Assembly (NCBI GenBank): GCA_963758715.1 | Contig: CAVWWK010000014.1 | Location: 68,381 to 132,380, forward strand | Length of the DNA: 64,000 bases | Direction of reading: 5' to 3' | Origin: an uncultured Actinomycetes bacterium | GTDB lineage: Bacteria > Actinomycetota > UBA4738 > HRBIN12 | In this document: piece by piece, positions 26,407-51,662 of the stretch | Layout: each line of letters begins with the position of its first letter | Position numbering within the stretch: the stretch's first letter is position 1 | The notes under the pieces: generated by a model | Told to the model about the DNA's origin: nothing | Databases searched by the model: none | The model's input: only the letters and a program-made list of their open reading frames with translations | Made by a program: the position numbers and the translations under genes

Positions 26407-29400
26407 TTAGTCCGGGCATTGCTCCAGGCGAGGAACTGCCGGCACTCCTCGTCGGTGAGCTCTCGCGTGACTTCCCGACGGGCGATCTCGAGCAGGTCGT
26501 CGATCTCGAGCGCCCAGATCCGGACGCTGTCCCCAACCAAGCCGATCCCGACCGAGGCCAGCCTCCGGCCGTCGGGGCTGAATTCGAGGCCCGTGGCACC
26601 CGCGATCTCCTCACGAAGGACCACCTGCTCGCCCGTGCCCGTATCGAGCAGAGCGATCGACGAGTTCTGGAACGAGGTCGCGATGCGCGAACCGTCGGGA
26701 CTGATCGCGACGTCCCAGATTGCTGCCGAGCGGCCGGCCGGACTCCTCCGCCACGCGAGCCCCGGTTCGGACGTCCCAGGTCTCGACGACCTCCCCGTCG
26801 AACGTCACGAGACGAGCGCCCGTCTCGATCGAACGCGATCTCCCCGAGCCCCGTCTCGATCTCCTGGACGACATGACGTCGCCGCCAGTCCCAGATCCGG
26901 ACCAGCGCGTCCTCCGCGGTGCCGCCATGCACTCGGACCGACGTCGCGAGGTAGCGGCCGTCCGGGCTGAACAGGGCGGCTCGGACGTGGTGGGCGTCCT
27001 CCTCGTCGCAGGACCACGACCTCCCGCCCAGATCGATCCAGGATCCTCACCGAACTCGGTCCGGCGCCCATGCGCGACGAGAGTCCCATCCGGACTCCAG
27101 ACGGCGCGGAGGTTGCCATGCGGCCTCGTGGTGAAGAGCGCGTCGCCGGTCGCCGTGTCGTACGCGGTGACCCTGGCGCGCCTGGCGACCAAGTCGTCGA
27201 TGACGATCGCCTCGCTGTCGATGACGATCGAGCTGCCATCCGGGCTTACCGCAAGCTCCGGGTGCGCCGCTCGCGGATAGGCCGTTGTCCCCGGGACACC
27301 GATCGTTCGGAGCTTTCGGAGAGGATCGAGTCCCCAGATCGCCACCGAGCCCCATCCGTTGGTTATGGCCACCCGATCCCCGTCCGCGACGAACCCGACG
27401 TGTCCGAAGGCGAGCGGAGCCGGAAGGTTCCCCAACTCGGCGTCACCGGTCGGACCTATATCCCAGATCTTCACGGCGGAGCGGTCGGCGGCGCCGGCGA
27501 GCACCCGGTTCCCGTCCGGCGAGAACGCCACGCCGCCGATCCCGCTGGACATCTCCGGCGACGACAGCGACATGAGCTCCCTGCCCTCGTTCTCGCCGAC
27601 CTTCCATACCTGCGCGGCCCCCTCGTCACCTCCGGAGACGATGCGCGTTCCATCGGGGCTCCACGCAACCGACCAGACGAACGACCTCTGGCCCCACAGC
27701 TCGTGCTGGACGCGCCCCGACCTCGCGTCCCAGGTCTCGATCACGCCGCTGGATCCGACCGTGGCGATCGATCGGTCGTCGGGGCTCCAGGCCAGTGCGT
27801 CGACGAGTTCGGGGCCATGGAGCTTGACCATGCGTCGCCGGTCGAAACGTCCATGATCACGACGCCGCCGTCGTCGTCAGCGACCGCGATCATCCGTCCG
27901 TCGGCGCTGAGGGCCGCGTCCTCGACGGGGTAGTCACCGGACGCGTTGAGGTTTCGGAACGTCCGGGTCGCGGCCCCATGAGCGAGGTCCACGAACCGGA
28001 TGGTACGGAAGTTCCACACGGCGGCGGCAAGCGCCCCACCGCCGCTGAAGGAGGGGTCCTCGACGGACCCCGGGCCCGTCTCGCTCGTGATGAGCCTTCC
28101 CGTCTCGGGATCCCATACCTTCAACATCCCGTCGTCGCCGGTGGTGGCCAGCATGGTGCCGTCCCGGCTGAACGCCGCGTCAGTGATGTCGCCTGTCGTG
28201 TCCGCGGAAAGGAGGGAGGGCGCTCTCACCTGAATCGGCGTCACGGATGTCGATGATCCCCGCTCCTCCTGGGACCCTGGGTGACGAAGACACCCTTCGC
28301 GCTCCAGGCCACCTCCCCTCCGACGCCCGGGGTCGTCGCCACAACCCGTGAGGTCGTGACGGCTTGGTGCAGCGCCTCCTCCGCCTCGGGAAGAACCGAC
28401 CCGTCCACCGATCTCGTGTGGTCGACCGCCTCCATCGCCAGCAGGATGCTTCGCTCGGGATCGACCTGGAGGTTCGCGACCGCAGCCGCGGCCAGTCCCC
28501 TCGCGGTGGCGACCCTCGCCTCTCGCGCCGCCTCGTCGCTCTCATTGGTCGCGATGATGGTGAGTGTGCCGGCGACCAGCGCTGCGACTGCGAAGACGGC
28601 CACGAGTGCGCGCAGCCTCGTCCGCGCGCGGCGCTCGACGTGCCGCTCGTGCTCGCCCCGCTCCCGCTCCACCGCGCGTTCCCGCTCGCGTTCGTCGATG
28701 CTCGCCTTGAGGTAGGACCGCCCAGGCCTGCCGATCGCGAGGTCGGTGGTCGTCGCCCAGGCTTCGGCTTGCTCGAGTCGCGCACCCCGCAACAGGAAGC
28801 TCGGGTCCTGCTGGGAGCCCCGCCATTCCGCGCTGGCTCGCGCGAGGCGCCGTTCCTGCCTGAGGTCGTCGCGCGCGTCGTCGATCCAGCCGGCCATCCG
28901 CTTCCATGCGCCGAGGAGCGCCTCGTGGGCGATCTCGACCGTCGGCTCGCGGGTGGAAGGCTCGCGATCGAAGGTCAACAGGCGGTGGTGTCCGAAGGTG
29001 TCAAGCACCTCGTCGACCTCGGCCGGATCCACGTCGAGGTCGACCAGCTCCCTCCTCGCCACCCGCCGTCGGGTGTCATGCCGGCCTTCGCCCAGCGTGA
29101 CGAGCCGCAGGAACACCTGCTTGATCGCTCGTCGTCCATCGGCGTCGGTCGCCTCGTACGTGCGCTCCGCCCTCGCCGACAGCGCTCCCGCGACGCCCCC
29201 GATCTTCCGGTAGGCGTCGAGGGTCAGTCGTTCCTCGTCACGCCGTTCGAACAGCTCTGTGAGCGCGTACTGCAGCAGGGGGAGCCCGCCCGGCTGATGG
29301 GCAACGTCGGCGATCATCTCCGCCACCAAGCCGGGCTCCGCCCTGACGCCTTCCTGCTCGGCGGGCCCTCGGATCGCCTGCTCGAGCTCGTCGGGGGTCA

Positions 29401-31450
29401 TCGGGGGAACCGCCTCGGTCCGGGCGGCGAGCAGCTCTCCGAACCGTGGGTAGACGAGCGGCCGGTCGTAGAAGTCGGCGCGCAGGGTCACGACCACGCG
29501 GAGCCTGCTCCGGGGGTCGGCGGTCGCCACACGGAGGGACTCGAGGAACAGCTCCCGCTCGTGTTCGTTCGTGGTGAGCGTGAAGAGCTCTTCGAACTGG
29601 TCGATCACGAGCACGACGCCTTTGTCGTCGGATGCGACGAGATCCACCGCCTCGAGCAGCCCCCGCGTCCCACCTTCGATCACATCCTGCAGCCGGGGTG
29701 TCGGACGCACGGCGATCCGGACCAGGGCGGCCACCAGCTCGTCGATCGGGTGCGGGCCGGGGAACATCTCGGCGATTGCTGGTTCCTCCGTCCCCTCGAC
29801 CGCTCCTCTGCGGATCGCCGGTATCAACCCTGCGCGCACCACCGACGACTTGCCGCTCCCGCTCGGACCAACGACGGCGAGGAACCTGCCTGGCGATCCC
29901 GCCTCGTTCAGCTTGGCCACGAGGCGTTCGGTCAGCTCGCCCCGGCCGAAGAAGTCGCGCGACTCGGCCGACGTGAAGGGTCGGAGGCCCTTGTACGGGT
30001 TGCGCACGTCCCGGGAAGTGGGGGAAGGGCCCGCTTCCGGTTCTAGGGACGCACGCATTTCCTCTGCGAATACCGCGGCCCCCGGGACCTCCAAGCCGCT
30101 CTCGGCTCGATCGACGAGATCGGCCATTCGGTGCGGCATCTCGTGCCCCAGCAGGTCCACCGCGAGTCGTGAGAGCGCGCGCACGTCCTCCTGAGGCTCG
30201 GGCGAGGTGCCGACCGCGATACGGAAGTCGGCGAGGTATGCGTTCCCCTCGGCGTCGAGCAACACGTTGGACGGCCCGAGGTTCCCGTGGGCGACACCGT
30301 GGCGGTGGGCGAAGGCGAGCGCCGATGCGATCTGTTCGACGATGCGAACAGCCCGGTCTCGTGGGAGCGACCCTTCGCGTTCCTCGACGGCACGCACGCT
30401 GCCTCCCCGCAGGTAGCGAGAGACGATGTAGGCGCGACCGGGTTCGCGCCAGTAGTCGTGGATCGGCACGATGTGGGGGTGCTCGAGTGCCGCGACGGCT
30501 TGAGCCTCTGGTTCGAATCGACCGACGAACGACGGGTCGCTCGCGATGTGCTCCGAGATCACCTTGACGGCTACGTCACGACCGACGTGGGGCTGGATCG
30601 CGCGGAACACCGTCCCCGTCGGCCCGTCGGCGATCCTCTCGAGGAGCCGGTAACCGCGGAGCGGCTCGCCTCGCAGTTCCAGTCCGGGGTCCTGCTTGAG
30701 GATCCGCTCGTGGAGCCGTGTCAGCTCGGGCGAGGGGTCGATGCCGAGCTCGTCGGCCAGGATCTCTCGCGCGCGCTGGAAGGCGCCCAATGCTTCGCCC
30801 TGCCGTCCTTCGCGGTAGAGCGCCGTCATCAACAGGCCCCACAGGCTCTCCCTCAACGGGGTGTGGGCCAGCAGGGCCTCCAGCTCCCCGATCGCCCCGG
30901 CCTGAGCGCCGCCCGCGAGGAGCCCTTCGATGCGGTCTTCCTGCGCCTCGAGCCGAAGGTCGTCGAGACGGGCCGCTTCGGCCAACAGCGATCTCTGCTC
31001 ACCGACGTCGGCGAGGTCGGCGAGCGCGGGACCGCGCCACAGCGCCAACGCGTCCTCGAGCGTCGCGACCGCGACCGTGGGGGCGACGGGGAGGGCCTGC
31101 TTCGCGTCGCGGACGAGCGAGTCGAACCGTGCGGCGTCCAGGTCGATCGGATCGACGACCAACATGTAGCCCGGGGACCGGCCCTGGAGCCGATCGTCAC
31201 CCAGCGTCGACCGCAGCTTGGACACGTAGGTCTGCAGCGTGTGCCGCGCCTTCTCGGGTGGCTCTTCGCCCCAGATCTCACCGATCAGCGTGTCGGCCGG
31301 CACGAGCTGGTTGGCGCGAATCAAGAGGTTCGCGAGCACGGCTCGCTGCTTCGGCCCACCGAGGGGGATCGGGCCGTCCCCCGCGTCGACCTCGAGAGGT
31401 CCAAGGACGCGGAACTGCACCCGCCGACCGTACACAGACGTCGTATCCAT
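26407..31450 (-). pseudogene. Giant paralog 1: SARP wHTH + BTAD + kinase-like + P-loop STAND-type NTPase + TM helix + WD40 propeller. N-terminal 3.2 kb intact, WD40 part has about seven frame breaks
   Basis: ORF 28241..31492 (1083 aa) carries these motifs:
- FRVLGPLEV...GGPKQRAVLANLL (OmpR/SARP wHTH);
- ALALWRGPALADL...ALYREGRQGEAL (BTAD);
- VAVKV...HGNLGPSNVLL...DFRIA (kinase-like);
- NPYKGLRPF...FFGR...VVGPSGSGKSS...VLVIDQFEELF (NTPase);
- RLRALVAVFAVAALVAGTLTIIAT (hydrophobic helix).
WD40 blades continue in ORFs 27741..28244, 26611..27831, 26261..26932 and 26349..26624. The true tail ...CRQFL.LEQCPD* ends at TAA 26407-26409. The start is 31450 (MDTTSVYGRRVQF) or 31492. Confidence 0.85.
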
Positions 31451-31602
31451 GAGCAACGCAGGACGCTGCCACGCCGTTGTCAAGAACCGCACAAATGCCG
31501 GGTTTGAGCATTCGTTGCCTCAGCTCTGCCTCACCTTCGATCGAGACGGTCGACCCTTCCCAGGTCCTCATGAGGGAGGGCGATCCGATGGAAGGAGGCG
31601 GT

Positions 31603-32115
31603 ATGGGCAGGAAGCTGTTGATCGGTGGGCTCGCGTCGGCGGTGCTGCTGGTGGGGGCCTTGGTCGGCGTCTCATACGGAGGTGGTGGTGGGATCACAGA
31701 GCCCCAGGTAATCGTGCTGAGCCACAGCAGCTGCGGCAAGGACGCACGGTGCGGGTTCTTCAAGTTGAAGCCGTTGGGGAGTTCGGATTCCGCGTACGGG
31801 CAACTGATCCTGGGGCGGATCCCATCGCATGACGTCGATGGGAACCTCGTGGGCATGTCCCACGGCTGGGTCAGCTCCGCCCAGGGAACCGGCTCGTTCG
31901 CCACCGTGATCGAGACCTTGAAGCCCGGCCCGCACACGTCTCGCGGGTCGGTCACCTTGACGGGATTCGTGCCGGGTGGCGGCTGCTACTTCGGCGACAA
32001 GGTCTGCACGTTCGCGGTCACCGGTGGAACCGGCGCCTACGTCAACGCGCGTGGGTACGCCACGGTGGAAGCGGTCCGCCGGCAGATCCGAACGACGCTC
32101 CACCTGATCCCGTAG
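31603..32115 (+). CDS. Secreted/membrane-anchored hypothetical protein (dirigent / allene-oxide-cyclase-like C-terminal signature)
   Basis: An SD (GGAAGGAGG) precedes the ATG at 31603. The N-terminus has a hydrophobic helix LLIGGLASAVLLVGALVGV. The C-terminus FAVTGGTGAYVNARGYATVE resembles the GGTGxYxxARG signature of dirigent-like beta-barrels. The gene is divergent from giant paralog 1. Confidence 0.7.
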   Translation: MGRKLLIGGLASAVLLVGALVGVSYGGGGGITEPQVIVLSHSSCGKDARCGFFKLKPLGSSDSAYGQLILGRIPSHDVDGNLVGMSHGWVSSAQGTGSFATVIETLKPGPHTSRGSVTLTGFVPGGGCYFGDKVCTFAVTGGTGAYVNARGYATVEAVRRQIRTTLHLIP

Positions 32116-32126
32116 GCCGGACAGCG

Positions 32127-32240: not shown

Positions 32241-32266
32241 GCGGACGAGGGATCCAGGCGACGAAG

Positions 32267-35470: not shown

Positions 35471-35498
35471 CGTTCCTAACCCTAGGCTTGCACACGAA

Positions 35499-35528
35499 CC
35501 GCAGGGGTGCCGATCTGGCCCCCTGCGG
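35499..35528 (-). terminator. GC-rich hairpin downstream of the 35550-35951 gene
   Basis: A perfect 9-bp stem CCGCAGGGG / CCCCTGCGG encloses a 12-nt loop. It lies about 20 nt after the stop of the minus-strand secreted-protein gene. There is no U-tract. Confidence 0.45.
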
Positions 35529-35549
35529 TCGTGAGCGATGTGGTAACGC

Positions 35550-39106: not shown

Positions 39107-39446
39107 TCACGCGCTGGGGCAACGATCGACGTGGAGGAACTGGCGGCATTCGTCGTCGGTCAGCGAGCGTGTGACCTCGCCCTTCGCGATCTCGAGGAGG
39201 TCGTCGATGTCGAGCGCCCACACGTGGATCCCCTCCGTCGTTCGGCGATTGGGACGCCAGCATGCTGCTATCGGCGCTGAATGCCAGCCGTCCGACCGGC
39301 CACGGATCGTTGGTGTGGAGCGTGTACAGGAAGGCCCCCGTCGCGCCGTCGAACAGGTAGACGCTGCCTGGCCTGCCGCTGGCGGCGATCCGACGACCGT
39401 CGGGGCTGAACTCAAAGTCGTAGACGGAGGCCGGGCCTCCCTTCAA
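39107..39446 (-). pseudogene. Orphan 3' fragment of a giant-gene paralog (last two WD40 blades plus conserved tail)
   Basis: ORFs 39066..39446 and 39107..39415 join to SVYDFEFSPDGRRIAASGRPGSVYLFDGATGAFLYTLHTNDPWPVGRLAFSADSSMLAS...HVWALDIDDLLEIAKGEVTRSLTDDECRQFLHVDRCPSA*. This is colinear with the last 110 or so residues of paralog 2. No WD40, NTPase or start signal lies upstream of 39446. Confidence 0.75.
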
Positions 39447-39724
39447 TGCGGCTACGCGGGCGAGCTTCCGGTCGGCGTGTCGTTCATGGCCTGTGCCTGG
39501 AGGAGCCCAAGCTCATCAAGTACGCGTACGCCGTCGACCAGGCTCTGCAGGTGCGGCACGAGCCGAAGTTCCTGGAGGGCTACGCCACGAGGGAGTTCAG
39601 CAGTCGTTGAACGGGAGGCCTCTTTGAGCGTTCCTCCAGCGGCTTGAATGAGGATTGCAAGGTGAGGCTGGCAGGTTCTTGCCACCGGACCTTGGAACAA
39701 GGTCATGGAACAAGGAGGAACCCG

Positions 39725-39871: not shown

Positions 39872-40488
39872 GTCTCGACGACGCCGTCCATGTGTGGCGT
39901 ACCTGGGCGCTCTTCGACGACCCGGGCTCACGGACGCCGACGCTGAGGCCGATCACCGGCGACAGGCGGATCTGGACGCCGCGGAGACCCGCTCGTGCGA
40001 GGTGCACCATCCATCGGCGCCATCGCGCGCCGGATCCCGGCTGCCGATGCGGGCTCTACGCGGTGAAGGACCCGAACCTGTTGCGGTACGCGCGCGATCC
40101 CGCCGTCCTGGGAACCGTGGCGCTGTGGGGACGGATCATGGAGCACGAGCTGGGGTTCCGTGGTGAGTTCGCGTACCCGCAGCGGCTCGGTCTGATCTGT
40201 TCCCTGTGCTTCTGGCAGTGGGGGGCGGGAACACGCGAGGTCGACCATGTCGCTAGGGTCGATCGCCACCAGCTCGTCCCACTGTGCGACACGCACCTGA
40301 CCCTTGCGATCGCCACGGGATACGACGTGACGGAGCTGCGTGACGCCGCGGTCGTTCGAACGTCGCTGCTGGCCACCTACGCGGTCGACCCGCTCGATCG
40401 GGGCCTCGCCGCCCGGCTCACGTCCCCACTGGACACCGTTCCACGTGCAGGAACTGCCGGCACTCTTCGTCCGTCAGCGAACGCGTGA
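39868..40488 (+). CDS. Cys/His-rich hypothetical protein
   Basis: The in-frame ATG at 39868 lies within ORF 39655..40488. Translation reads ...ARCTIHRRHRAPDPGCRCGLYAVKD...GTVALWGRIMEHELGFRGEFAYPQRLGLICSLCFWQW...LVPLCDTHL. The last 70 or so nt overlap the convergent 3' end of giant paralog 2, so the true stop may lie earlier. Confidence 0.55.
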   Translation: MSLDDAVHVWRTWALFDDPGSRTPTLRPITGDRRIWTPRRPARARCTIHRRHRAPDPGCRCGLYAVKDPNLLRYARDPAVLGTVALWGRIMEHELGFRGEFAYPQRLGLICSLCFWQWGAGTREVDHVARVDRHQLVPLCDTHLTLAIATGYDVTELRDAAVVRTSLLATYAVDPLDRGLAARLTSPLDTVPRAGTAGTLRPSANA

Positions 40489-43400
40489 CCTCCCGCCGGG
40501 CGATCTCGAGCAGGTCGTCGATGTCGAGCGCCCAGACCTTGATCTCTCCAGCGGTGATGGCTGCCAGCTTCGTGCCGTCGCGGCTGAAGTCCACGCGCCA
40601 CGCTCCGAGTTCGGAACCGGGCAGGGTGAACAGCAGATCGCCGGACTCGGCATCGAACATCCGGACGGCCGGGATTCCGAAGGAGCCCGTCGCGACGCGG
40701 GTTCCGTCGGGGCTGAAGGCCACATCGATGACCTCCCCTGAGCTCACCGCGAGGACCGCTTCGCGCTCTCCGGTCTCGACGTTCCACACTTCCGGCTGCC
40801 CGCCACCCGGCGGCGGGACGGTGGCGATCCGAGCTCCGCTCGAGTCGAACGCGAACCGACCCGTGGAGATCGGGAGCTCACGTACGACGCGTGCCCGCTC
40901 CCAATCCCAGAGCCGCATGCTGCGGCCGGACGACCCGGTCCCCGATGTGGCCACCAAGGCCCCGTCGGGGCTGAACCGCGCGAACCCGATCTCGAAAGCC
41001 TCGTCTTCCAGGGTCTGGATCTCGTTCCCGGTGCGATCCACTATGACGGCGGAGCCGTCGAGCATCGACATCAGCAGCAGCGTGCCATCTGGGCTCCAGT
41101 CGACATCGCTTACCCCGGGCGGACCGTCGACCGTGAACAGGGGTCGTCGTGTGGCCCTGCCCCAGGCCTCCACGCGCCCGCCGTTCCACTCGCTAACGGC
41201 TACCGATCTGCCGTCGGCACTCACCGACACCTCCCCGTCGTACCAGTCTTGACCGAAGCGAGGGGAGCCGATCGTGTCGAGGGGGCGCCGCGCCTCGGTG
41301 TCCCAGATCGTGACTGTGCCCTCTCCGTTGGACGCCGCGAGGTGGCCGCCCGGCAGGAACTCGGCGTCGCCCAGCAGGTAGTTCGCGTTCAGGTTCGCCC
41401 ATTCGGCGTCGCCGTCGAAGCCGATGTCCCAGATCTTCACCGCGGCCCCATCCTGCGCTCCGAACATGATCTGGGATCGGTCTGGAGAGAAGGCGATGCC
41501 CGCGATCCCACCCAGCGTCTCCGCGGACGAGAGCGACAGCACCTCTCTCGCGCCGTCAACCTCCCACACCTTGACTTCCCCGTCCTCGGCAGCCGAGGCC
41601 AGGAACGACGAATCCGAGCTCCATGCGACCCTCGTGACGAAGCCGTTGTGACCGATGAGCCCGAATGCGTGCTCCCCCGAAACCGCGTCGTAGACCTCGA
41701 TCGATGGGTGGGTCGTCGTGCCTGCGATGAACCGACCATTCGGGCTCCATGCCAGGGACCCGAAGGAAGGCTGCTTCGCGAACACGTGCTCTTCGGTCTC
41801 GAGGTCGATCACGATGAACCCGAAGGAGTCTCGGGTCTGGGAGTCGGTCGTCACGGCGATCCGCTGCCCGTCGGGACTGAGCGCGGTGGCACGAGGCACC
41901 CCAGGGACTCGAAGCGTTTGGACCTCATCCCGGGACAGGTCGACGACGCGTACGACCCGTTCACGGGGCCAGGAGGCTGCGAACGAACCCTCGGCGCCGG
42001 CCGAGAGCCCGGTCGCCGAACCCTGGCCGACGTACTCGACGAGGAGGTCGCCGGTCGACGGATCCCACACCTTCAGGATCCCGTCGGCACCCGTTGTGGC
42101 GAGGGTGGCACCGTCGGCGCTGAATGCCACGCCCGTCACGCCCCCGTCGTGGTCTCCGACCGTATGCACGAGCGCTCCCGTCCCGGCGTTCCTGATCGCA
42201 ACCAGCCCCGAGCCGCGCGGTCCCTCGGCTGCGAACACGCCGTTCGGACCCCACGCCACGGAGCCGCCGACGTCGGGCACGGTCAACGCCGCCCGCGACG
42301 CGCTGAGGGCCCGATGCATTGCATCCTCGGCCTCGGGGAGGACGGAGCCGTCGAGCGATCTCGAGAGGTCGACGGCCTCCATGGCCAGCAGGATGCTTCG
42401 CTCGGGGTCGGTGTCCACGTTGACGACGGCCGCGGCCGCGAGCTCCCGCGCCGTCGCGATCGTGGCCTCTCGGCCCGCCCTCTCGCCTTGGTTCATCGCG
42501 ATCGCGGTCAGCGTTCCCGCGACGAGGGCGGCGGCGCCGAGCACCGCGACGAGTGACCGGAGCCGTCGGATCGACCGGCGTTCCAGGACCCGTTCGCGTT
42601 CTTCGGCCTCGCGCTCGGCGGCGTTCTCTTCATCGCGCAAGGCGATGCTCGCGTCCAGGTAGGCACGGTCGTTCTCCACCAGGGAGAGCGTCGTCGTCTC
42701 GGTCCACGCCTGGGCTCTCTCGAGTCGCGCTCCCCGCAGCAGGAAGCTCGGATCTCGCCCGCTCGTCGTCCACTCGGCGGCGGCCGCGGAAAGCTGTCGT
42801 TGTGCCCGGATGTCGTCCCGGGCTTCTTCGATCCAGACGCGCAGCCTGGCCCACGATCCCAGCAGCGCCTCGTGCGCGATCTCGATCGTGGGCTCGCGCG
42901 TCTCCGGGTCGCGGTCGAACGAGAGCAGGCGATGCCGGCCGAAGGCGTCGATCACGCTCTCGAACGCCACCGGGTCGGCGACCGGCGTGAGCTCCGAGCG
43001 CCGCACCCGTCGCCGCGTGTCCTGCGCCCCCTCACCGAGCGTGACCATCCTGAGCAGGAGCTGGCGGCAGGCGACGCGCGCGCCCTCGTCCATCGCGGCG
43101 AACAACCGGTCGGCGCGTTGCGCGACGGCGCCGGACACCCCGCCGATCCCCCGGTACCCGTCGAGCGTGAGCGCGCCGTCCTCACGTCGCTCGGCCAGCT
43201 CGGTGAGCGCGAACTGCAGCAACGGAAGCGCGCCCGGCTGGTCGACGACGTCGGCGATCATCACGGCCAGCAGCGACGGCTCGACGTGGAGCTCGGCCCG
43301 TTCCGCGGGCTCCACGATCGCGCGTTCGAGCTCGTCGGGTGACATCGGTGCGATCGCTTCGGTGCGTTCGGCGAGCAGGTCTCCGAATCCCCGGATCGAA

Positions 43401-45440
43401 AGTGGCTCGTCGAAGAAGTCCGCTCGCAGGGTCGCGACGATCCTGATCCGGCTGCCGGGTTCGAGCGCGGCCGCCCGGAGTGTGGAGAGCACGTGTGCGC
43501 GCTCGCGTTCGTCCTCGACCAGCGTGAACACTTCCTCGAGCTGGTCGACCACGATCAGCAGCTCGTCGTCGGTGTGAGGAAGCACGCGGTGCGCTGCTCG
43601 CACCAGGCCGAGCTCGTCGTGCTCGAGGTCGTCCAGGAGGGACGGCGGGGGTTCGATCGCCACGCTCAGCAGCGCCGATTCGAGCTCGCGGAGCGGATGG
43701 GAGCCCGGCAGGAGCTCGATCACGTACCAGCGGTCGGATCCGGGCACCGCCCCGGCGCGCAGCGCCGGCACCAGACCGGCTCGCACGACCGACGACTTCC
43801 CCGAGCCCGACGGCCCCACGACGGCCAGGAACCGGGCGGTGGCGGACTCGTCCCGCAACCTGTCGACAAGTCGAGCGACGAGCGCCTCGCGGCCGAAGAA
43901 GTCCGCTTCGTCGGCCTCCAGGAAGGCCCGCAGTCCCTTGTACGGGTTGCGGATCGTCCCGGGCGGCTCTCCGATGGCGGTGGCGCCGTCGACCGCTGCT
44001 CGGAAGGCGGCCGCCAGCTCGAGGGCGCCCGTGAAACGGTCGTCGAGCTCCTCGGCCGTCGCTCGAGCGATCGTGGTCTGGAGCGCTGGCGTCGGCTGCG
44101 CCCCGCCGAGCATCTGCGACGCAACGATCCCCAAGGCGTCAACGTCTGACTGCGGCGTGGCCGGTTCCTCGCGGAGCTGCGCCGCCACGACGAAGTCGGT
44201 CAGGTATGCGTTGCCCTCCTCGTCGAACAGCACGTTCCTCGGCTTCACGTCTCCATGCACGACACCCTGGCGGTGCGCGGCGTCCAGCGCGGCAGCAACC
44301 TGATCGAGGACGTCCGCGGCGCGGTCGGGCTCGAGCGGCCCCGCGCTCGAGCGATCGCTCCAAGCTCCCGCCGACGAGGAAGCGCGTCACCAGGTAGGCG
44401 GCGTCGGCCTCGCGCCAGTAGTCGTAGAGCGGCACGATGTGCGGGTGCTCCAATCGAGCCACGATCTGCGCCTCGCGTTCGAACCGGCGCACGAAGCCCG
44501 GGTCGTTCGCCAGCTTGGGATTCACGGCCTTGATCGCCACCTCGCGGCCGATCTGGGGCTGGATCGCACGATGGACGACACCGTTGGCGCCCCGACCCAC
44601 CTGCTCGAGCAACCGATAGCCGCGGAGAGGCTCGCCCCTGAGTGCGAGCTCCGGATCCTGGCGAAGGATCCGCTCGTGCAGGATCTGTAGATCGCGCGAG
44701 GGATCGATCCCGAGCTCGTCGGCCAGGGTCGTGCGGGCACGCTCGAACGCGGCGAGCGCGTCTGCCTGCCTGTCCTGTCGGTAGAGCGCGAGCATGAGCT
44801 CTCCCCACAGGCGCTCCCGCAGGGGGTGAGCGCGGGTCAAGCCCTCGAGCTCGGCGACGACCCGGTTGTGCTGGCCCAGGTCGAGCTGCGCCGCGATCTT
44901 CTCCTCGACCGTCTCGAGCCGGAGCTCCTCGAGCCGGGCGATCTCTCCCGAGAGCGACGGTTCGGCCGCGAGGTCGGCGAGGGCCGGGCCCCGCCACAGC
45001 TCGAGCGCCTCGGTGAGCGTGTCCGCGACATCACGCGGCTCGGTCTCCGAGACCCTCGCCTCGCCGAGGAGATCCTCGAACAGCTGAGCGTCCACCTCGT
45101 CCGGTTCCGCCCGGAGCCGGTAGCCGGGAGGACGCCCCTCGATCGTGTCCGGCCCGAGCACCGAGCGCAACCGCGAGATGTAGACCTGAAGGGTCGCCTT
45201 CGGGACCTCGGGAAGCTCTTCCCCCCAGACGGCGTCGATCAGGTGCTCGGCGGGAACGACCCTGTTCGCCGCCAGCACGAGGTGCGCGAGCACGATCCGC
45301 TGTTTGGGGCCGCCGAGTGGGCGCGGGCCGTCCTGCCCGGAGACCTCGAGAGGCCCGAGGACACCGAAGCGCACGGGCCGACGGTACATCCCGGATGCAC
45401 TATTCGGAACCCCCTGCCGATCCGTGGTGGTCGAGGACAC
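40418..45440 (-). pseudogene. Giant paralog 2 (SARP wHTH + BTAD + kinase-like + STAND-type NTPase + TM helix + WD40). Best preserved copy, single frame break at a C4 run (44339-44342)
   Basis: ORF 44139..45440 covers the wHTH, BTAD and kinase N-lobe (GRGANGVVHRA...VAIKAV). ORF 40418..44260 (1280 aa, uninterrupted) carries:
- HGDVKPRNVLF...DFVVA;
- NPYKGLRAF...FFGRE...VVGPSGSGKSS...LLIVVDQLEEVF;
- RLRSLVAVLGAAALVAGTLTAIAM;
- about 650 aa of WD40-like blades;
- the tail WALDIDDLLEIARREVTRSLTDEECRQFLHVERCPVGT*. Confidence 0.9.
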
Positions 45441-45500
45441 CGGGCCAGCCTGGGTCCTACCCCTTTCAGACCGCTTTCATCGACCGGCCCGGGCCGCGAC

Positions 45501-46148: not shown

Positions 46149-46169
46149 GATGTATGTAGCATACATCAT
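46147..46169. promoter_or_regulatory. Perfect AT-rich inverted repeat overlapping the vapB start; candidate TA operator
   Basis: ATGATGTATG-TAG-CATACATCAT has 10-bp perfect arms and a 3-nt spacer. It is the most AT-rich spot in its neighbourhood. It lies in the 50-nt gap between the paralog 3 stop and vapB. Confidence 0.5.
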
Positions 46170-46198
46170 TGCATTCGGAGGCTGGCGGTGGAGATCCC

Positions 46199-49100
46199 TC
46201 AGGCGGGGCAGCGATCGAGGTGCAGGTACTGGTGGCACTCTTCGTCGGTGAGCGATCTGGTGACGTCTGTCGTGCGATCTCGAGCAGGTCGTCGATGTCG
46301 AGTGCCCAGATCCGGACGCACCCGTGACGCCCACCCGACGCGAGCATCGTGCCGTCCGTGCTGAATACCAGCCAGTTGGAGACCTCGACGTGGCCTCGAA
46401 GCACGAGCTGCTGCTCGCCCGAGGTTGCATCGTAGAGTCGGACGGAGCATCGTTCAGGGTCGCCGCCAGCCGAGTGCCGTCCGGACTGAAGTCGACGTTG
46501 GTGATCTTCTCCGGAGGGCAACGAGCTTCTCGAGGCGTCCTCGGTCTCCCATACCTCCCAGATCTTCGTCGTACGGCAGGGCACGGTGGCGAGCCGCGCA
46601 CCATCAGGAGCGAAGTCGGAATCAGCGAGACCAACCAGCGATCGTCCTCGACGACCTCGCCTCGCGCCAGGTCCCAGATCGTCGTGCGAGGCTCGACGTT
46701 TCCGATTCTCCGTTCCAGGGCGTGCACTCATCGCGACGGAACGCCCGCGGGGCTGAACCTGGCGGCTACGAGCCATGATACCCGTCGTCCTCGCGCAGGA
46801 CTTGGATCTCCCGACCGTTCCGATCAACGATCTTCGCCCAACCATGACTGCTCGCGAGGAACGAGCGGCCCTCGGGGCTCCAGTCGACTAGCTGGATGAG
46901 CTGGTCGTCGTGAGACGCGCAGGTTCGGTTTCCCGACGCGATATCCCAGACGTCGGACGCCTCATCCCCGAAGGTAACGATCGACTCGCCCGCCGGGCTC
47001 ACCTCGAGTTGAGGATGTCCGAGGCCGAAGAGATCCACGAACGGCGGATCGAGCCTCATCGGCGGTCCGCCCTGTTTCCCGGTCCCAGATCGCAAGCGCT
47101 CGGTGAGCCATCCTCCGATGCCGTCACATGGGGTCCGTCCGGCATGAAGCCAGCGGGATACCAATACGCGCCTGGGAAGTTCGCGACCTCGGCGCCACCC
47201 GAGATGCTCACGTCCCAGAGTCCATGACAGCCGTGAAGTCGGCATCCGAGCGGGTCATCACCGGGTCCCATCGGGCGAGAAGGCAACGCCGGTGATCTGG
47301 CCCGGCACGCGAGGAGAAGGACCGACACTTCCGTGGCGTCCCGCTCCACGATAGGCCACACCTTCGCGGTAGATTCCCTGCGGTTACCAAGCACGTCGAG
47401 TGCGGGATGCCCCCGCTCACCGGGTCGCATGCGTGGACTGGGCATCGGGAGTCCTGACCCACATGGCGACGGCGCCGTGTACCCTCGCAGCATTCGAACT
47501 CGAAGAGGTGTCGTCCGTTCGCGGCCAACACTGCCGAGGTCCCCGAATGTCGGTACGGCGATGTGCCGCCCATCTGGGACTCCATGCGACCGAGGTGAGC
47601 CCCTGGTCCGCGCATAGAGTCGGCGGCCATCACCGGTCTCGACATCGATCAGATGGAACACCTCGCCCTCGTAGCCCCCAGACGGCGACGACCCGTTCCC
47701 GTCGGGACTGAGCGCGACGTCGTTCGTGTACGGCGCAGCTGGGAACGTCCGGACTCGGCCCGTGTCAGCTCGACACTCGCACCGATCTCGAACGGTGCCT
47801 GAACTCGCCGCATGCCGCAGCGACCCGCGACCCATCCGCAGCTGAAGGAAGGACCCGCGCGCCCCACCCCGGACCCTGATGTCCTGATCAGATCGCCGCT
47901 TGACAGATCCCAGACCTTGAGCCGCCCGTCCTTGCCCGTCGTCGCGAGCATCGAGCCGTCGGGGCTGAACTCGGCGCCGGTGACCTTCCCGTCGTGGCCG
48001 GAAGCGAACGCATGATCTCGCCCGTCTCCTGGTCCCTGAGGTCGATGATCCCGACCGGGCGAGGGCCTTCCGACGCGAAGTCCCCATCCATGACGACGAG
48101 GCCCGCTGGGCCCCAGTCGATGGCACCCCGGTTCGGAGCCGCACGAGAGCTCATCTCGCCCGAGCCCGGGATCGACCTCACGATCCGCGACGCCGTCACA
48201 GCTCGGTGGAGCGCCTGTTCGGCCTCTCGCAGCACGGAGCCGTCGACCGAGCGCGTCCGGTCCACGGCCTCCTTCGCGAGCAGGATGCTGCAGCTCTGGA
48301 TCGACTCGAGGTTCGCGACGCGCCGCCGCAGCCAGTTCCCGAGCGAAGGCGACCCTCGCTTGGCTCCGCAGCTGCTCGCGCTGGCGGTCGCGATGACGGT
48401 GAGCACCGACGCCACCAGGGCGGCGACTGCGAACACCGCGACGAGCGCGCGCAGCCGGGAACGAGAGCGACGCTCCGTCCGTTCCTCGCGGCTCCGGCGG
48501 GCTTCGCTCCTCCGCCGCTCCTGGTCGCGCACGTCGACGCTCGCCTTCACGTATTCGCGCTCGGGTCGTCCGATCGCGAGGTCGGTCGATGCGGCCCACG
48601 ACTCGACCTGCTCCAGCCGCGCGCCTCGAAGCAGGAAGCTCGGGTCGCGGCCGGAACCTCGCCACTCCCCGGCCGCCGCGCCAGGCGGTGGTCCTGGCGG
48701 AGGTCCTCCCGGGCGTCGTCGATCCACGTTCGGAGTCTGGCCCACGCCGTGAGCAGTGCCTCGTGCGCGATCTCGACGGTCGGTTCCCGGGTCGACGGCT
48801 CCCGGTCGAACGTCAGCAAGCGGTGACGTCCGTACGTGTCCATCACCGTCTCGACGAGCTCGGGATCGACGTCGAGCGCATCGAGCTCGCTCCGCGTGAC
48901 GCGACGTCGCGTGTCCTGGCGGCCCTCCCCGATCGTGACGAGCCGCAGGAACACCTGGCGGATCGCCCGCTGCCCATCGGGCTCGGTCGGTCGCGAAGAT
49001 CCGGTCGGCCCGCGCGGACAAGGCGCCCCCGATGCCTCCGATCTCCTCGTAGGCCGCAGGGTGAGCCGGTCGCCGTCCCGTCGCTCGAACAGCTCGGTGA

Positions 49101-51308
49101 GCGCGTACTGCAGCAGCGGCAGCGCGCCGGGCTGGTGGGCGACATCGGCGATGATCTCTGCCTCGAGGCCGGGCTCGGCCGCGATGCCGACCCCTTCGGC
49201 CGGCCGTCGGATCGCCTGCTCGATCTCGTCGGGCGTGAGCGGGGGAACCGCCTCCGTCCGTGCCGCGAGCAGCTCGCCGAAGCGCGGGTACATCAAGCGG
49301 TCGGTCGTAGAAGTCGGCGCGCAGCGTGACGACGACCCGGAGTCTGCTCTCGGGATCGAGGGCCGCCACGCGCAGGGACTCGAGGAACAGCTCACGCTCG
49401 TGCTCGTCGGTGGTGAGGGTGAAGACCTCCTCGAACTGGTCGACGACCAGGACGAGGATCGCGGGTGCGGGCAGCACGAGATCCAGCGCGTCGAGGAGGC
49501 CTCGCGAGCTTCGATCGAGCAGGTCGTGCAGGCGTGACGTCGGGTGCGTTCCGACCCGGACGAGCGCCTGTTCGAGCTCCTCGATCGGGTGCGCTCCCGG
49601 GGAACATCTCGGCCACGAAGCACGGTCCTGCGCGTCCCCGAGGGCGCCCTGCCGGATCGCCGGCACCATCCCTGCCCTGACGACCGAGGACTTGCCCGCG
49701 CCGCTCGGGCCGACCACGGCGAGGAACCGGGCCCTGCCCGGTCTCGCCGAGCCGGCCGAGCAGCCGCGCGGTGAGCTCGCTCCGCCCGAAGAAGTCGTGG
49801 GCGTCGGCCTCGGTGAACGGCCTCAGGCCCTTGTAGGGGTTGCGGACGTCGGCCGGTCGAGGAGCTGGGGACCGTCTCGGGCGTCGGCGACCGTGCGTGC
49901 GGCCTCGACGAACGCCTCCGCGCCGGGGATCTCATCCGAGAGCAGCGTCCGCTCGACGAGCTCAGCGAGCCGATGCGGCATGCTCTCCGTCGAAGATGCT
50001 CTTCGCGAGCCTGGCGAGCTCGCGGATGTCATCGGCCGGCTCCGGTTCGGGCCCGACGCCGACCCGGAAGTCCCCGAGGTAGGCGTTGTGCTCCCCGTCG
50101 AACAGCACGTTGGAGGGGCGCAGCCCGCCGTGCGCGACGTGCTGTCGGTGTGCGAACGCCAGCGCCGAGGCGATCTGCTCGACGACCAGCGACGCACGAT
50201 CCGCCTCGAGCCGCTCGCCCGTGCCTCGAGGGCGGCGAGGCTTCCTCCCTTGAGGTACCGCGAGACGACGTAGGCGCCGCCGGGCTCTCTCCAGTAGTCG
50301 TAGACCGGGACGATGTGGGGATGTTCGAGCGCCGCGGCCGCCTGCGCTTCCCGTTCGAATCGCCGCACGAACGCGGGGTCCGACGCGATCTGCTCGTGGA
50401 AGATCTTGACCGCGACGTCTCGCCCCACGCGAGGCTGGAGCGCCCGGAAGACGACCCCGGTGGGCCCTTCGCCGATCTTCTCCAACAGGCGGTAGCCGCG
50501 CAGCGGGTCGCCGCGGAGCTCCAGGTCCGGGATCCTGCTTCAGGATCCGTTCGTGGAGCCGTGCGAGCTCCGGCGAGGGATCGACGCCAAGCTCGTCGGC
50601 CAGGATCTCCCGGACGCGCTGGTAGGCGCCGAGGGCCTCGGCTTGGCGCCCGTCTCGGTACAGGGCAAGCATGAGCTGGCGCCAGATGCGCTCCCGGAGC
50701 GGGTGCTGTGCGACCAGGAGCTCGGCTTCGCCGATGACTCGGGCGTGCTCGCCGATCGCCATCAAGGCTTCGACGCGCTCCTCCTCGGCGACCAGCCTCA
50801 GCTCATCCAGGCGTGTCGCCTCGGCGCGCAAGCCGCCATCCTCGGCGACGTCGGCGAGCGCGGGGCCGCGCCAGAGCCCGAGCGCCTCTTCCAACACGGA
50901 GGCGGCGATGCCCGGGTCGAGGGGTCCGACCTTCCTGGCGTCGTTGAAGAGCTTGTCGAACCGCGCCGCGTCCAGCTCCGAGGGATCGAGCCGCAGCCGG
51001 TAGCCGGGGGTCTGACCCTCGATGCGGTCGGCACCGAGCTCCTTCCGTAGCCGGGAGACGTACGTGTGGATCGTGCCCCGCGCGGACGCCGGTGCGTCGT
51101 CCTCCCAGACCTCGTTCACCAAGACGTCGGTCGGGACCAGCTCGTTGGCTCGGACGATCAGATGCGCCAGGAGTGCCCGCGGCCGGGGCCCGCCCAACGG
51201 GAGCGGTTGGTCTGCCCGATCGACCTCGAGCGAACCGAGGATCCTGAACTGCATCCTGGCCCCACCCGCAGATCGAGCCTGACCCTTCGAGGTGGTGGTT
51301 TCGACCAT
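46199..51308 (-). pseudogene. Giant paralog 3 (same architecture), at least ten frame breaks along its whole length
   Basis: Colinear pieces are:
- ORF 49962..51341 (FRILGSLEV..., BTAD);
- ORF 49823..50485 (GEGPTGVVFRA...VAVKIF...);
- HVAHGGLRPSNVLF...GDFRVGVG;
- ORFs 47888..49717 and 48547..49935 (VGPSGAGKSS, LVLVVDQFEEVF, DPSFLLRGARLEQVESWA, RLRALVAVFAVAALVASVLTVIAT);
- WD40 pieces in 47056..48144, 46766..47245 and 45898..46845;
- the tail ...VTRSLTDEECHQYLHLDRCPA* (46199).
The start is 51308 (MVETTTSK) or 51341. Confidence 0.8.
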
Positions 51309-51662
51309 CCGATCACCGGACCGAGTATCGAACTTCGGCACAGAGAGCGCCAGTGAGTCGCTCCATCCCGGGAAGGCATACGCGAGTCGTCACCCGGCCA
51401 TCCTGATCGTCGGGTCTTGCAACATCCTTGACGTCACGGTTCAGGGGATGTCTGGGGCCACCGGTGAGGGTTCTATTCGTAACGATCAGAGGGGATCGGA
51501 TGGCCACGCTCGAGAACCGCCGGACGCGTCGCGGAGCTGAGGTGTCATGCAGACGCGTTGTCCCGAGGGTCGCTGCGATGCCCTGCTCGCGTCGGCCGCG
51601 TGCATCGGATCGACGACGCCGGGGGCATCTGGCCAGATCCCACCCTTTAGGAGGCTGACCGA

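What the first reader, a model, noticed from the sequence alone, without database searches (positions are those of the whole stretch)
26407..51341. Three paralogous ~1,680-codon genes fusing SARP DNA-binding/BTAD, a kinase-like domain, a STAND-type P-loop NTPase, a hydrophobic helix and a WD40 propeller
Three minus-strand genes (26407-31450, 40418-45440, 46199-51308) share one colinear architecture, readable directly in the translations:
- an OmpR/SARP winged helix (FRVLGPLEV...GGPKQR..L);
- a BTAD (LWRGPALADL...ALYR.GRQ.EAL..Y);
- a Hanks-kinase-like domain;
- an NTPase beginning NPYKGLR.F...D...FFGR with Walker A VGPSG[SA]GKSS and Walker B hhhhDQ[FL]EE[LV]F;
- a long helical region (DPSFLLRGARLE.A..W);
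- one hydrophobic helix of about 21 residues;
- about 650 aa of WD40 blades.

SARP regulators, STAND NTPases with WD40 sensor arrays and Ser/Thr kinases are each well known. A single polypeptide that joins a DNA-binding output, a pseudokinase, a STAND switch and an apparently extracytoplasmic propeller is not a described, characterised system as far as I know. STAND/WD40 proteins act as ligand-triggered switches in signalling and in anti-phage or conflict systems. Three copies within 25 kb, plus two more decayed remnants, points to a diversifying family.
Basis: partly seen in the sequence, partly recalled or inferred. Interest (0 to 1): 0.85.

Follow-up and report, generated by a model that had tools for sequence, protein, structure and literature searches.

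The report
Membrane-spanning SARP–STAND–WD40 regulator paralogs
Three neighbouring genes encode giant proteins that appear to span the membrane, with a double beta-propeller sensor outside and an ATP-driven switch plus a DNA-binding head inside, forming an uncharacterised but widespread class of soil-actinobacterial regulator that probably turns on its own promoter.

Summary
Three minus-strand paralogs and two small remnants share the order wHTH–BTAD–kinase-like–nSTAND1 NTPase–hydrophobic helix–WD40–Cys tail, and Pfam supports every domain.

None of the three is one intact ORF. Copy 2 has one extra G, copy 1 about eight indels (all in the WD40 part), and copy 3 at least nine. Housekeeping genes in the window are broken too. 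Relatives are mostly intact, and substitutions fall mainly on third codon positions. The breaks therefore look mostly like long-read assembly noise.

The architecture is not rare. There are more than 5,500 close homologs, nearly all from uncultured soil Actinomycetota. I found no characterised member.

New evidence from this work:
- The helix behaves as a membrane span, and Cys counts are even only on its C-terminal side, which places the propellers outside the cell.
- The kinase-like domain descends from active kinases but has lost its catalytic Asp (kept in copy 2) and its activation segment.
- Family promoters carry 11-nt-period direct repeats, as SARP operators do, and the repeat word varies together with the recognition helix.

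Best reading: a one-protein transmembrane transcription activator that regulates itself. It is a new variant of AfsR-type SARP/STAND regulators.

The parts
26407..31450 (-). Copy 1. Open for 1,083 codons (31492..28244; likely start ATG 31450), covering wHTH, BTAD, kinase-like, nSTAND1, helix and cap. The WD40 part is broken by about eight 1-2-nt indels.
   Evidence: It is 84% identical to the intact 1,678-aa P0002.
31136..31426 (-). Copy 1 OmpR/SARP winged helix-turn-helix
   Evidence: Pfam Trans_reg_C; coordinates; EmbR is the top structural match.
30677..31135 (-). Copy 1 BTAD
   Evidence: Pfam BTAD, E 7e-42; coordinates.
29957..30676 (-). Copy 1 kinase-derived pseudokinase. The VAVK Lys and the DFR Asp are kept, HRD is replaced by HGN, and there is no activation segment or APE.
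28616..29956 (-). Copy 1 nSTAND1 NTPase plus helical arm (NPYKGLR, Walker A GPSGSGKSS, Walker B DQFEE, DPSFLLRGARLE)
   Evidence: Pfam PF20703, E 5e-121, profile positions 1-378 of 379; motif conservation.
28550..28615 (-). Copy 1 predicted transmembrane helix (LRALVAVFAVAALVAGTLTIIA)
   Evidence: It lies inside a single 84-residue helix in the AF2 model.
26407..28549 (-). Copy 1 extracytoplasmic part: helical cap, WD40 blades (frame-broken) and the Cys-x8-Cys tail
31462..31517 (-). Copy 1 upstream repeats with 11-nt period: GCAACGA-N4-TCAAACC, then TTTGTGC-N4-TCTTGAC-N10-CAGCGT
   Evidence: Conserved in orthologs L001, L002, L017 and L029; sequence. This is the weakest of the three boxes.
40421..45389 (-). 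Copy 2. A single frame break (an extra G in a GGGG run near 44340) gives a 1,656-aa product from ATG 45389 once corrected.
43904..44642 (-). Copy 2 kinase-like domain (HGDVKPRN and DFV; activation segment deleted). It contains the frame break.
42563..43903 (-). Copy 2 nSTAND1 NTPase plus helical arm
   Evidence: Pfam PF20703, E 1.4e-118; coordinates.
42497..42562 (-). Copy 2 predicted transmembrane helix (LRSLVAVLGAAALVAGTLTAIA)
40421..42496 (-). Copy 2 helical cap, two WD40 propellers of about seven blades each, and the Cys-x8-Cys tail
   Evidence: AF2 mean pLDDT 84.7, about 58 strands. Best PDB matches are 2YMU and the Apaf-1 propellers.
45447..45479 (-). Copy 2 SARP-box-like operator and -10-like hexamer: TGAAAGC-N4-TGAAAGG-N8-CAGGCT
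   Evidence: exact match; 0.02 expected in the window.
46202..51254 (-). Copy 3. It has at least nine frame changes, yet every hallmark motif is present: FRILG, LWRGPALAD, DVAVK, VAHGGLRPSN, GDFRVG, NPYKGL, Walker A and B, the helix at 48389-48454, and the EEC..C tail.
   Evidence: Third-position substitution excess against the ortholog L012 copy A.
51400..51431 (-). Copy 3 SARP-box-like operator: TCAAGGA-N4-GCAAGAC-N8-CAGGAT
39113..39467 (-). Remnant 1: last WD40 blade plus tail (…ALDIDDLLEIAKGEVTRSLTDDECRQFLHVDRCPS), in two frames, about 950 nt downstream of copy 2
25062..25130 (-). Remnant 2: tail only (…RELTDEECDQLLHVAQCPD, then a stop), about 1.3 kb downstream of copy 1
51663..52763 (+). 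Divergent neighbour of copy 3: a PD40/TolB-like beta-propeller lipoprotein (lipobox LVLAGC). Homologs lie upstream of family genes in at least 10 other loci.

Best explanation
Each copy encodes a single-pass membrane protein.

Shown by profile and motif matches:
- The cytoplasmic N-terminal ~945 residues hold a SARP DNA-binding head (wHTH plus BTAD).
- Next comes a kinase-derived pseudokinase.
- Next comes an nSTAND1 P-loop NTPase with intact Walker motifs.

Inferred from sequence statistics and AF2 models:
- One transmembrane helix follows.
- About 700 residues lie outside the cell: a helical cap, two seven-bladed WD40 propellers and a disulfide-bonded tail.

Inferred mechanism: a ligand or surface cue binds the external propellers. 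This changes the clustering or orientation of the helices, which lets the cytoplasmic NTPase modules exchange nucleotide and oligomerise. Two SARP heads are then positioned side by side on two 11-bp direct repeats that overlap the -35 region, recruiting RNA polymerase as AfsR does. The clearest target is the gene's own promoter, giving positive autoregulation. Each paralog has its own repeat word and recognition helix, so the three copies would be separate signalling channels. The pseudokinase most likely serves as a nucleotide-binding or docking module, not as an enzyme.

The frame breaks are mostly indel errors of a long-read metagenome assembly. Real recent decay of copy 3 and of the 3' part of copy 1 cannot be excluded.
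For: Architecture:
- Pfam matches for every domain.
- Walker A and B invariant in 115 members.
- EmbR and the PknA/PknB kinase domains are the top structural matches for the N-terminal part.
- Apaf-1-like tandem propellers for the C-terminal part.

Membrane topology:
- The helix is the top hydropathy segment in 115 of 115 members (mean KD19 2.49, next best 1.58).
- It is kept at the same position in 139 of 150 diverse relatives while its sequence varies freely.
- Net charge is +3.1 upstream and +0.5 downstream.
- Cys counts are even on the C-terminal side in 96.5% of 115 members and in 76 of 85 diverse representatives. On the N-terminal side the figures are 53-54%.
- AF2 draws one isolated helix of about 85 residues through the segment.

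Pseudokinase:
- HRD is replaced by H-G-N (N 88, S 10, D 6 of 115), while the VAVK Lys and the DFx Asp are kept.
- Kinase-only relatives on the same chassis are canonical: HRD 52/59, DFG 54/59, APE 56/59.

Operator:
- Exact 6-mer direct repeats at 11-nt spacing number 95 in the upstream regions, against 2-23 at other spacings, 6 inside the genes and 3 far upstream. By locus, 30 of 69 have one, against 2-10 of 69 at other spacings.
- The consensus is TTCAAGCG-N3-TTCAAGCG-N8-GAGGCT at a fixed distance from the start.
- All three window copies carry a version of it.
- The repeat word co-varies with the wHTH recognition helix.
- The AfsR operator has the same 2 x 11-bp geometry (PMC10936776).

Functional genes:
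- 56 of 79 loci hold one ORF of at least 1,550 codons, and 12 of the 14 internally broken ones are long-read MFD contigs.
- Housekeeping genes in the window are frame-broken too.
- Differences by codon position are 9/8/22% for copy 3 and 13/10/32% for copy 1.
- Breaks in the ortholog L012 fall mostly at different positions.
Against: - Nothing here is experimental. The topology rests on hydropathy, charge bias and Cys parity.
- Family members are related, so the counts are not independent.
- WD40 propellers are classically cytoplasmic. In canonical STAND proteins the sensor folds back on the NTPase, which a membrane between the two would prevent.
- AF2 confidence for the N-terminal model is modest (mean pLDDT 67, pTM 0.33).
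- Copy 1's box is degenerate and uses N10 spacing, not N8.
- Co-variation between box and helix could reflect shared ancestry alone.
- Frame breaks are not spread evenly: none in the first 3.3 kb of copy 1, then about eight in 1.8 kb, and at least nine in copy 3 against one in copy 2. Uniform sequencing noise does not predict that pattern.
Confidence: 0.55

Rival explanations
1. These are conflict or immunity sensors (anti-phage, or kin or non-self recognition). nSTAND1-WD40 proteins would detect an invader, and the paralog array would be diversifying under an arms race.
For: - nSTAND1 was defined in predicted conflict systems (PMC8195603).
- Some nSTAND1 proteins are targets of diversity-generating retroelements.
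- WD40 is the most divergent part: 43% between copies 1 and 2, against 56-57% for SARP and the NTPase.
- Copies cluster in 9 of 79 loci.
- Displaced tail remnants lie downstream of copies 1 and 2.
Against: - The output is a transcription activator, not a toxic effector.
- PADLOC matches only the kinase-like segment.
- The neighbours are metabolic and signalling genes, not defence genes.
- A sensor outside the membrane cannot see intracellular phage proteins.
- The autoregulatory operators fit ordinary gene regulation.
- Most STAND clades (391 of 589) were not classed as defence-associated (PMC13581612).
Confidence: 0.15
2. These are soluble, AfsR-like cytoplasmic regulators. The hydrophobic helix would be a buried or oligomerisation helix, and the WD40 sensor would fold back on the NTPase as in Apaf-1 and other STANDs.
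For: - Known STAND regulators and Apaf-1 are cytoplasmic, and the propellers resemble those of Apaf-1.
- No signal peptide is present.
- AF2 cannot tell a membrane helix from a solvent-exposed one.
Against: - The helix sequence varies freely while its hydrophobicity is conserved in 139 of 150 relatives.
- The positive-inside charge bias and the strong even-Cys bias appear only on the C-terminal side.
- AF2 does not pack the helix against any domain.
Confidence: 0.12
3. In this genome the copies, at least copy 3 and the 3' part of copy 1, are true pseudogenes. They would be decaying members of an expanded family with no present function.
For: - There are multiple frame breaks.
- They are concentrated in copy 3 and in the WD40 part of copy 1, not spread evenly.
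- Two obvious dead remnants lie nearby.
- The orthologous cluster in L012 is also broken.
Against: - Conserved housekeeping genes in the same window are broken too.
- Breaks differ between the orthologs.
- The third-position excess shows purifying selection.
- Every catalytic and structural motif of copy 3 is intact.
- Broken copies are largely confined to long-read MAGs.
Confidence: 0.18

Closest known systems
AfsR and other large SARPs (SARP-NB-ARC-TPR) of Streptomyces
   Same: - N-terminal OmpR-type wHTH plus BTAD.
- A STAND-type NTPase switch followed by a repeat sensor.
- An operator of two 11-bp direct repeats overlapping the -35 region.
- AfsR is controlled by a Ser/Thr kinase (AfsK).

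   Different: - The NTPase is nSTAND1, not NB-ARC.
- The sensor is a double WD40 propeller, not TPR.
- A kinase-derived domain is fused in cis.
- A predicted transmembrane helix puts the sensor outside the cell.
- The NCBIfam AfsR model matches only the SARP part (191 bits, cutoff 1430).
- SARP classifications list no such class.
EmbR (SARP-FHA) with the membrane kinase PknH in Mycobacterium tuberculosis
   Same: The SARP fold is the best PDB match (2FF4/2FEZ, E about 1e-12). From my own knowledge of that system, a transmembrane Hanks-type kinase pathway feeds a SARP.
   Different: There the receptor kinase and the SARP are separate proteins linked by phosphorylation. Here they are fused, the kinase is degenerate, and a STAND NTPase is inserted between them.
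Kinase-nSTAND1-helix-WD40 proteins of Chloroflexota and Actinomycetota (annotated 'protein kinase' or 'nSTAND1 domain-containing NTPase')
   Same: They share the chassis of NTPase, hydrophobic helix at the same position, cap, WD40 and Cys tail, at 47-55% identity over the NTPase-helix module.
   Different: They carry a canonical, apparently active kinase and no SARP. Some carry LuxR/GerE or XRE HTH heads instead. I found no characterised member.
ToxR/CadC-type membrane-anchored one-component regulators
   Same: An N-terminal cytoplasmic OmpR-type wHTH, one transmembrane helix and an external sensor, with DNA bound while the protein stays tethered to the membrane (my own knowledge of these families).
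   Different: Those have no NTPase, pseudokinase or BTAD, and they are five to eight times smaller with unrelated sensors.
Apaf-1 and bacterial STAND-WD40 proteins
   Same: A STAND NTPase followed by tandem WD40 propellers. Apaf-1 gives TM-score about 0.46 on the query.
   Different: Apaf-1 is soluble and its propellers bind ligand in the cytosol. Its output is a CARD adaptor, not a DNA-binding domain.

Membership tests
SARP family transcription regulators | OmpR-type winged helix (Trans_reg_C) directly followed by a BTAD | tested here: met
   Pfam hits in all three copies. EmbR is the top structural match.
SARP family transcription regulators | Binds direct repeats of 11-nt period that overlap the -35 region of target promoters | tested here: inconclusive
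   Such repeats are strongly enriched upstream of family genes, and all three copies carry one. Binding itself was not tested.
Large SARP / AfsR-like (SARP-NB-ARC-TPR) | Central NB-ARC-clade NOD | tested here: not met
   The NTPase matches nSTAND1 PF20703 end to end, with no NB-ARC hit. The NCBIfam AfsR model aligns only to residues 9-257.
Large SARP / AfsR-like (SARP-NB-ARC-TPR) | C-terminal TPR sensor | tested here: not met
   The sensor is made of WD40 blades.
STAND NTPases, nSTAND1 clade | Full-length match to the nSTAND1 profile with Walker A and Walker B | tested here: met
   E 5e-121 and 1.4e-118 over profile positions 1-378 of 379. GPSGxGKSS and DQFEE are invariant.
STAND NTPases, nSTAND1 clade | C-terminal array of structure-forming repeats as the sensor | tested here: met
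   About 14 WD40 blades.
Active Hanks-type Ser/Thr protein kinases | Catalytic Asp in the HRD motif | tested here: not met
   HGN in copy 1 and HGG in copy 3. Across the clade the position is N 88, S 10, D 6 of 115. Copy 2 keeps HGD.
Active Hanks-type Ser/Thr protein kinases | Activation segment with an APE motif and a complete C-lobe | tested here: not met
   The Pfam match stops at profile position 151 of 263. There are about 16 residues between DFx and the alpha-F Asp in copy 2. Kinase-only relatives keep APE in 56 of 59 cases.
Anti-phage STAND systems (Avs, bNACHT and related) | NTPase or sensor matches a defence-system model | tested here: not met
   PADLOC hits cover only the kinase-like segment, residues 258-422.
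Anti-phage STAND systems (Avs, bNACHT and related) | Toxic effector domain and/or a defence-island neighbourhood | tested here: not met
   The N-terminal module is a transcription factor. The neighbours are STAS, a histidine kinase, GNAT, LigB, DinB, cupin, USP and RHH.
Membrane-anchored one-component regulators (ToxR/CadC-like topology) | Cytoplasmic N-terminal wHTH, a single transmembrane helix and an external C-terminal sensor | tested here: inconclusive
   Hydropathy, charge bias and Cys parity all agree. No experimental topology is available, and there is no homology to ToxR or CadC beyond the wHTH.

The most novel reading that the evidence does not exclude
This would be a receptor-like STAND: an NLR-type nucleotide switch whose repeat sensor sits outside the cell and signals across the membrane directly to a fused transcription activator. 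Arrays of paralogs would each carry a private sensor, a private recognition helix and a private operator, forming orthogonal, self-amplifying channels. Displaced 3' tails would record swapping of sensor modules. The same chassis, with kinase, LuxR or XRE heads, numbers tens of thousands of representative clusters in Actinomycetota and Chloroflexota, so this would be a major unstudied mode of bacterial transmembrane signalling.
Probability: 0.4. Interest if true: 0.82.

Novelty: new variant of a known kind. Interest (0 to 1): 0.62.

Why it matters
STAND/NLR switches are regarded as intracellular sensors, and SARPs as soluble activators of antibiotic gene clusters. This family would join the two in a protein that reads the outside of the cell, which neither field describes.

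It is testable. The predicted operators, the Walker motifs and the topology each give a simple assay in a Streptomyces or E. coli host.

The family is abundant in uncultured soil Actinomycetota and often multi-copy, so it may be a main route by which these organisms sense their surroundings. Paralog-specific pairs of box and recognition helix could also supply orthogonal regulatory parts.

Tried and rejected
- **Intact ORFs.** Rejected by the ORF list and six-frame maps.
- **Frame breaks specific to these genes.** Rejected: the SBP_bac_5, DAO and OppF genes are split too.
- **Old pseudogenes.** Rejected by the codon-position pattern and by breaks that are mostly private to each assembly when compared with L012.
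- **Hidden N-terminal cyclase domain**, as in the ~1,880-aa relatives. No hit in the window.
- **Source contig look-up.** The exact product P0001 is not on record, and the cluster look-up gave no name.
- **Defence system.** PADLOC gave only kinase-segment hits.
- **Biosynthetic cluster context**, as expected for a SARP. None among the neighbours.
- **AfsR membership.** The NCBIfam score is far below the cutoff.
- **One universal conserved neighbour.** None found. A PD40 lipoprotein, a ~200-aa HExxH protein and a ~170-aa protein with no Pfam match each recur in only part of the loci.
- **Extra copies of copy 3's box** in the window. Not above chance: 4 matches against 2.9 expected.
- **Literature searches** for nSTAND1, BTAD with WD40, SARP with WD40, and kinase with WD40 and transmembrane. 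No paper describes this architecture. The library lacks most subscription journals.

Full report
**1. What is in the sequence**

The window is about 68% G+C. On the minus strand between 26.4 and 51.3 kb lie three colinear paralogs.

Pfam gives the same order for each copy:
- Trans_reg_C (OmpR/SARP winged helix).
- BTAD, E 1e-42 to 1e-46.
- Pkinase, covering profile positions 1-151 of 263 only.
- nSTAND1 (PF20703), E 5e-121 and 1.4e-118, end to end.
- WD40 repeats.

None of the three is one ORF.

| Copy | State in this sequence |
|---|---|
| 1 | Open for 1,083 codons, then about eight 1-2-nt indels between 28261 and 26430 when aligned to an intact ortholog at ~80% nucleotide identity |
| 2 | One extra G in a GGGG run near 44340 |
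| 3 | At least nine frame changes |

After correction, copies 1 and 2 give 1,683 and 1,673 residues. Copy 2 is 1,656 residues if it starts at the likelier ATG 45389.

A family profile finds two remnants:
- 39113-39467: the last blade plus the tail.
- About 25062-25130: the tail only, ending in a stop codon.

**2. Are the breaks real?**

Housekeeping genes in the same window are also split between frames:
- An SBP_bac_5 solute-binding protein.
- A DAO oxidoreductase.
- An OppF-type ABC ATPase.

Relatives tell the same story:
- Among 79 related loci, 56 carry the gene as one ORF of at least 1,550 codons.
- Of the 14 internally broken ones, 12 are contigs of the 'MFD' long-read MAG series.
- A related MAG (L012) has a similar three-copy cluster. 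Its copies are also broken, mostly at other positions.

Selection is still visible. Differences between copy 3 and its L012 ortholog are 9.2%, 8.0% and 22.0% at codon positions 1, 2 and 3. For copy 1 against L001 they are 13.3%, 9.6% and 31.7%. Copy 3 also keeps every hallmark motif.

I conclude that the genes are, or very recently were, functional, and that most breaks are assembly indels. The uneven density of breaks is not explained by uniform noise. It leaves room for real decay, or for consensus errors in a strain-variable region.

**3. The family**

- The copy 1 ORF finds 5,574 homologs at E < 1e-10. The best 120 are mostly intact proteins of 1,650-1,890 aa with the same Pfam set. They are named only 'BTAD domain-containing putative transcriptional regulator' or 'WD40 repeat protein/SARP family activator'.
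- In one-genome-per-species contigs, 566 stretches encode relatives. The best 78 loci are almost all from uncultured soil Actinomycetota, often with several copies per genome. In 9 of 79 loci, copies lie within 21 kb of each other.
- Longer relatives add an N-terminal domain resembling a class III cyclase. The window copies lack it.

The NTPase-helix module alone has 43,487 representative clusters at E ≤ 0.001. Among the top 150:
- 50 have SARP plus a kinase-like domain.
- 59 have a kinase-like domain only.
- 7 have SARP only.
- The rest are mostly fragments.

Kinase-type relatives abound in Chloroflexota. Some carry LuxR/GerE or XRE HTH heads.

**4. Pseudokinase**

In 115 close members:
- HRD is replaced by H-G-[N 88 / S 10 / D 6].
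- The VAVK Lys is kept in 113.
- The DFx Asp is kept in 113.

The stretch from DFx to the alpha-F Asp is too short to hold an activation segment or an APE motif. Kinase-only relatives on the same chassis keep HRD in 52 of 59, DFG in 54 of 59 and APE in 56 of 59. The domain therefore descends from an active kinase and has lost its catalytic apparatus in this clade. Copy 2 keeps HGD..KPRN but also lacks the activation segment. The AF2 model of this part matches the PknA, PknB and PknI kinase domains (TM-score 0.65-0.68 on the target).

**5. Topology**

- The hydrophobic helix is the highest hydropathy segment in all 115 members (mean KD19 2.49, next best 1.58).
- In 139 of 150 diverse relatives a segment with KD19 ≥ 1.8 sits at the same distance from the NTPase, although its sequence varies freely.
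- Net charge in the flanking 15 residues is +3.1 before the helix and +0.5 after it.
- Cys counts after the helix are even (2, 4, 6 or 8) in 96.5% of the 115 members and in 76 of 85 diverse representatives. Before the helix they are even in 53-54%, and Cys is 2.5 times rarer there.
- From my own knowledge, exported actinobacterial proteins tend to have paired, disulfide-bonded cysteines. The two invariant Cys of the tail (EEC-x8-C) fit that.
- AF2 draws one unbroken helix of about 85 residues through the segment in both models. It also predicts a confident C-terminal part (pLDDT 84.7) with about 14 blades. The closest solved structures are a cyanobacterial double propeller and the Apaf-1 propellers.

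Together this supports an orientation with the N-terminus inside and the propellers outside.

**6. Operator**

The spacing test used about 70 non-redundant upstream regions.

| Test | At 11-nt spacing | Comparison |
|---|---|---|
| Exact 5-mer direct repeats | 154 | 17-42 at spacings 7-10 and 12-16 |
| Exact 6-mer direct repeats | 95-98 | 2-23 at other spacings |
| 6-mer repeats in control regions of equal size | n/a | 6 inside the genes, 3 far upstream |
| Loci with at least one 6-mer repeat | 30 of 69 | 2-10 of 69 at other spacings |

The commonest form is TTCAAGCG-N3-TTCAAGCG-N8-GAGGCT, about 105-110 nt before the FRVLGP codon. The window copies carry these versions:

| Copy | Upstream sequence |
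|---|---|
| 3 | TCAAGGA-N4-GCAAGAC-N8-CAGGAT |
| 2 | TGAAAGC-N4-TGAAAGG-N8-CAGGCT |
| 1 | TTTGTGC-N4-TCTTGAC-N10-CAGCGT |

The copy 1 box is conserved in four orthologs.

The repeat word tracks the wHTH recognition helix across the family:
- TCAAGCG goes with RN.[IL]Q.Y.SHLRKALG.
- TCTTGnGCG goes with RHILHTYISSLRK.
- TTTCAGCG goes with RNALQSYASH.
- TGAAAG goes with KATLQVYISRLRS.

The AfsR operator is likewise two 11-bp direct repeats overlapping the -35 region, each bound by one SARP protomer (PMC10936776). The simplest reading is positive autoregulation with paralog-specific operators.

Copy 2's box type also occurs, with one mismatch, before a GNAT gene and before a gene for a secreted PAP2-like protein. 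That makes 3 sites in the window against 0.02 expected.

**7. Comparison with what is known**

- SARP classifications list small, medium (NB-ARC), large (NB-ARC plus TPR, such as AfsR) and SARP-LAL types. No WD40, nSTAND1, kinase or membrane-bound class appears.
- nSTAND1 was named in work on predicted conflict systems.
- A 2026 STAND phylogeny classes 198 of 589 clades as defence-associated and does not describe this architecture in its main text.
- PADLOC and NCBIfam give no specific family.
- The neighbourhood holds no defence genes and no biosynthetic cluster.

**8. Verdict**

The family is common but uncharacterised.

It works most like AfsR, which also couples a SARP head to a STAND switch, but it fails the AfsR membership tests on the NOD clade, the sensor type and solubility. 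I file it as a new variant of the SARP/STAND regulator kind.

The predicted membrane-spanning layout and the private operators are the points worth testing.

Noticed in passing
window 110-1373, 3460-5245, 7819-9806: Conserved housekeeping genes (a DAO oxidoreductase, an SBP_bac_5 solute-binding protein and an OppF-type ABC ATPase) are each split between two frames. The whole window therefore carries indel noise typical of a long-read metagenome assembly.
   Followed up: partly
window 36031-36047 (+) and 53080-53096 (+): Two further near-matches to copy 2's operator (TGAAAG-N5-TGAAAG, one mismatch each; 3 sites in the window against 0.02 expected). They lie upstream of a GNAT acetyltransferase gene (36164-36634) and of a gene for a secreted PAP2-like protein (53307-54594). 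These are possible regulon members.
   Followed up: partly
window 51663-52763 (+); L003 8188-9189, L012 8386-9351, L050 2-691, L052 7840-8718: A PD40/TolB-like beta-propeller lipoprotein is transcribed divergently from copy 3, and homologs lie upstream of family genes in at least 10 other loci. It may be an external partner of the sensor.
   Followed up: partly
L051 7057-7944, L062 9238-9909 and about 14-18 other loci: A sister subfamily has a conserved protein of about 200-295 aa with an HExxH motif and no Pfam match immediately upstream, mostly on the opposite strand. It is absent from the window.
   Followed up: partly
window 25062-25130 and 39113-39467 (-): Both remnants are 3' ends (tail, or last blade plus tail) lying 1-1.3 kb downstream of a full copy on the same strand. 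They look like displaced ends left by replacement of the sensor-encoding 3' part through recombination.
   Followed up: no
window 31453-32115 (+); L001 9217-9729 (-): A protein of about 170-200 aa with no confident Pfam match (a weak Dirigent-like hit) is encoded divergently from copy 1 and from its orthologs L001, L002, L017 and L029.
   Followed up: no
window 33342-35584 (-): An OmpR-type response regulator (wHTH at 33348-33506) sits next to a HAMP-HisKA-HATPase sensor kinase (34001-35584), between copies 1 and 2. It is a separate two-component system, not a family remnant.
   Followed up: no
window 45873-46190 (-): A small ribbon-helix-helix (CopG-type) gene lies between the stop of copy 3 and the promoter of copy 2.
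   Followed up: no
P0010, P0033 and other ~1,880-aa relatives: About a third of the listed close relatives add an N-terminal domain resembling a class III nucleotide cyclase in front of the SARP head (FLVADVRGYT…GDEALAVF). That would give them a second possible output.
   Followed up: partly
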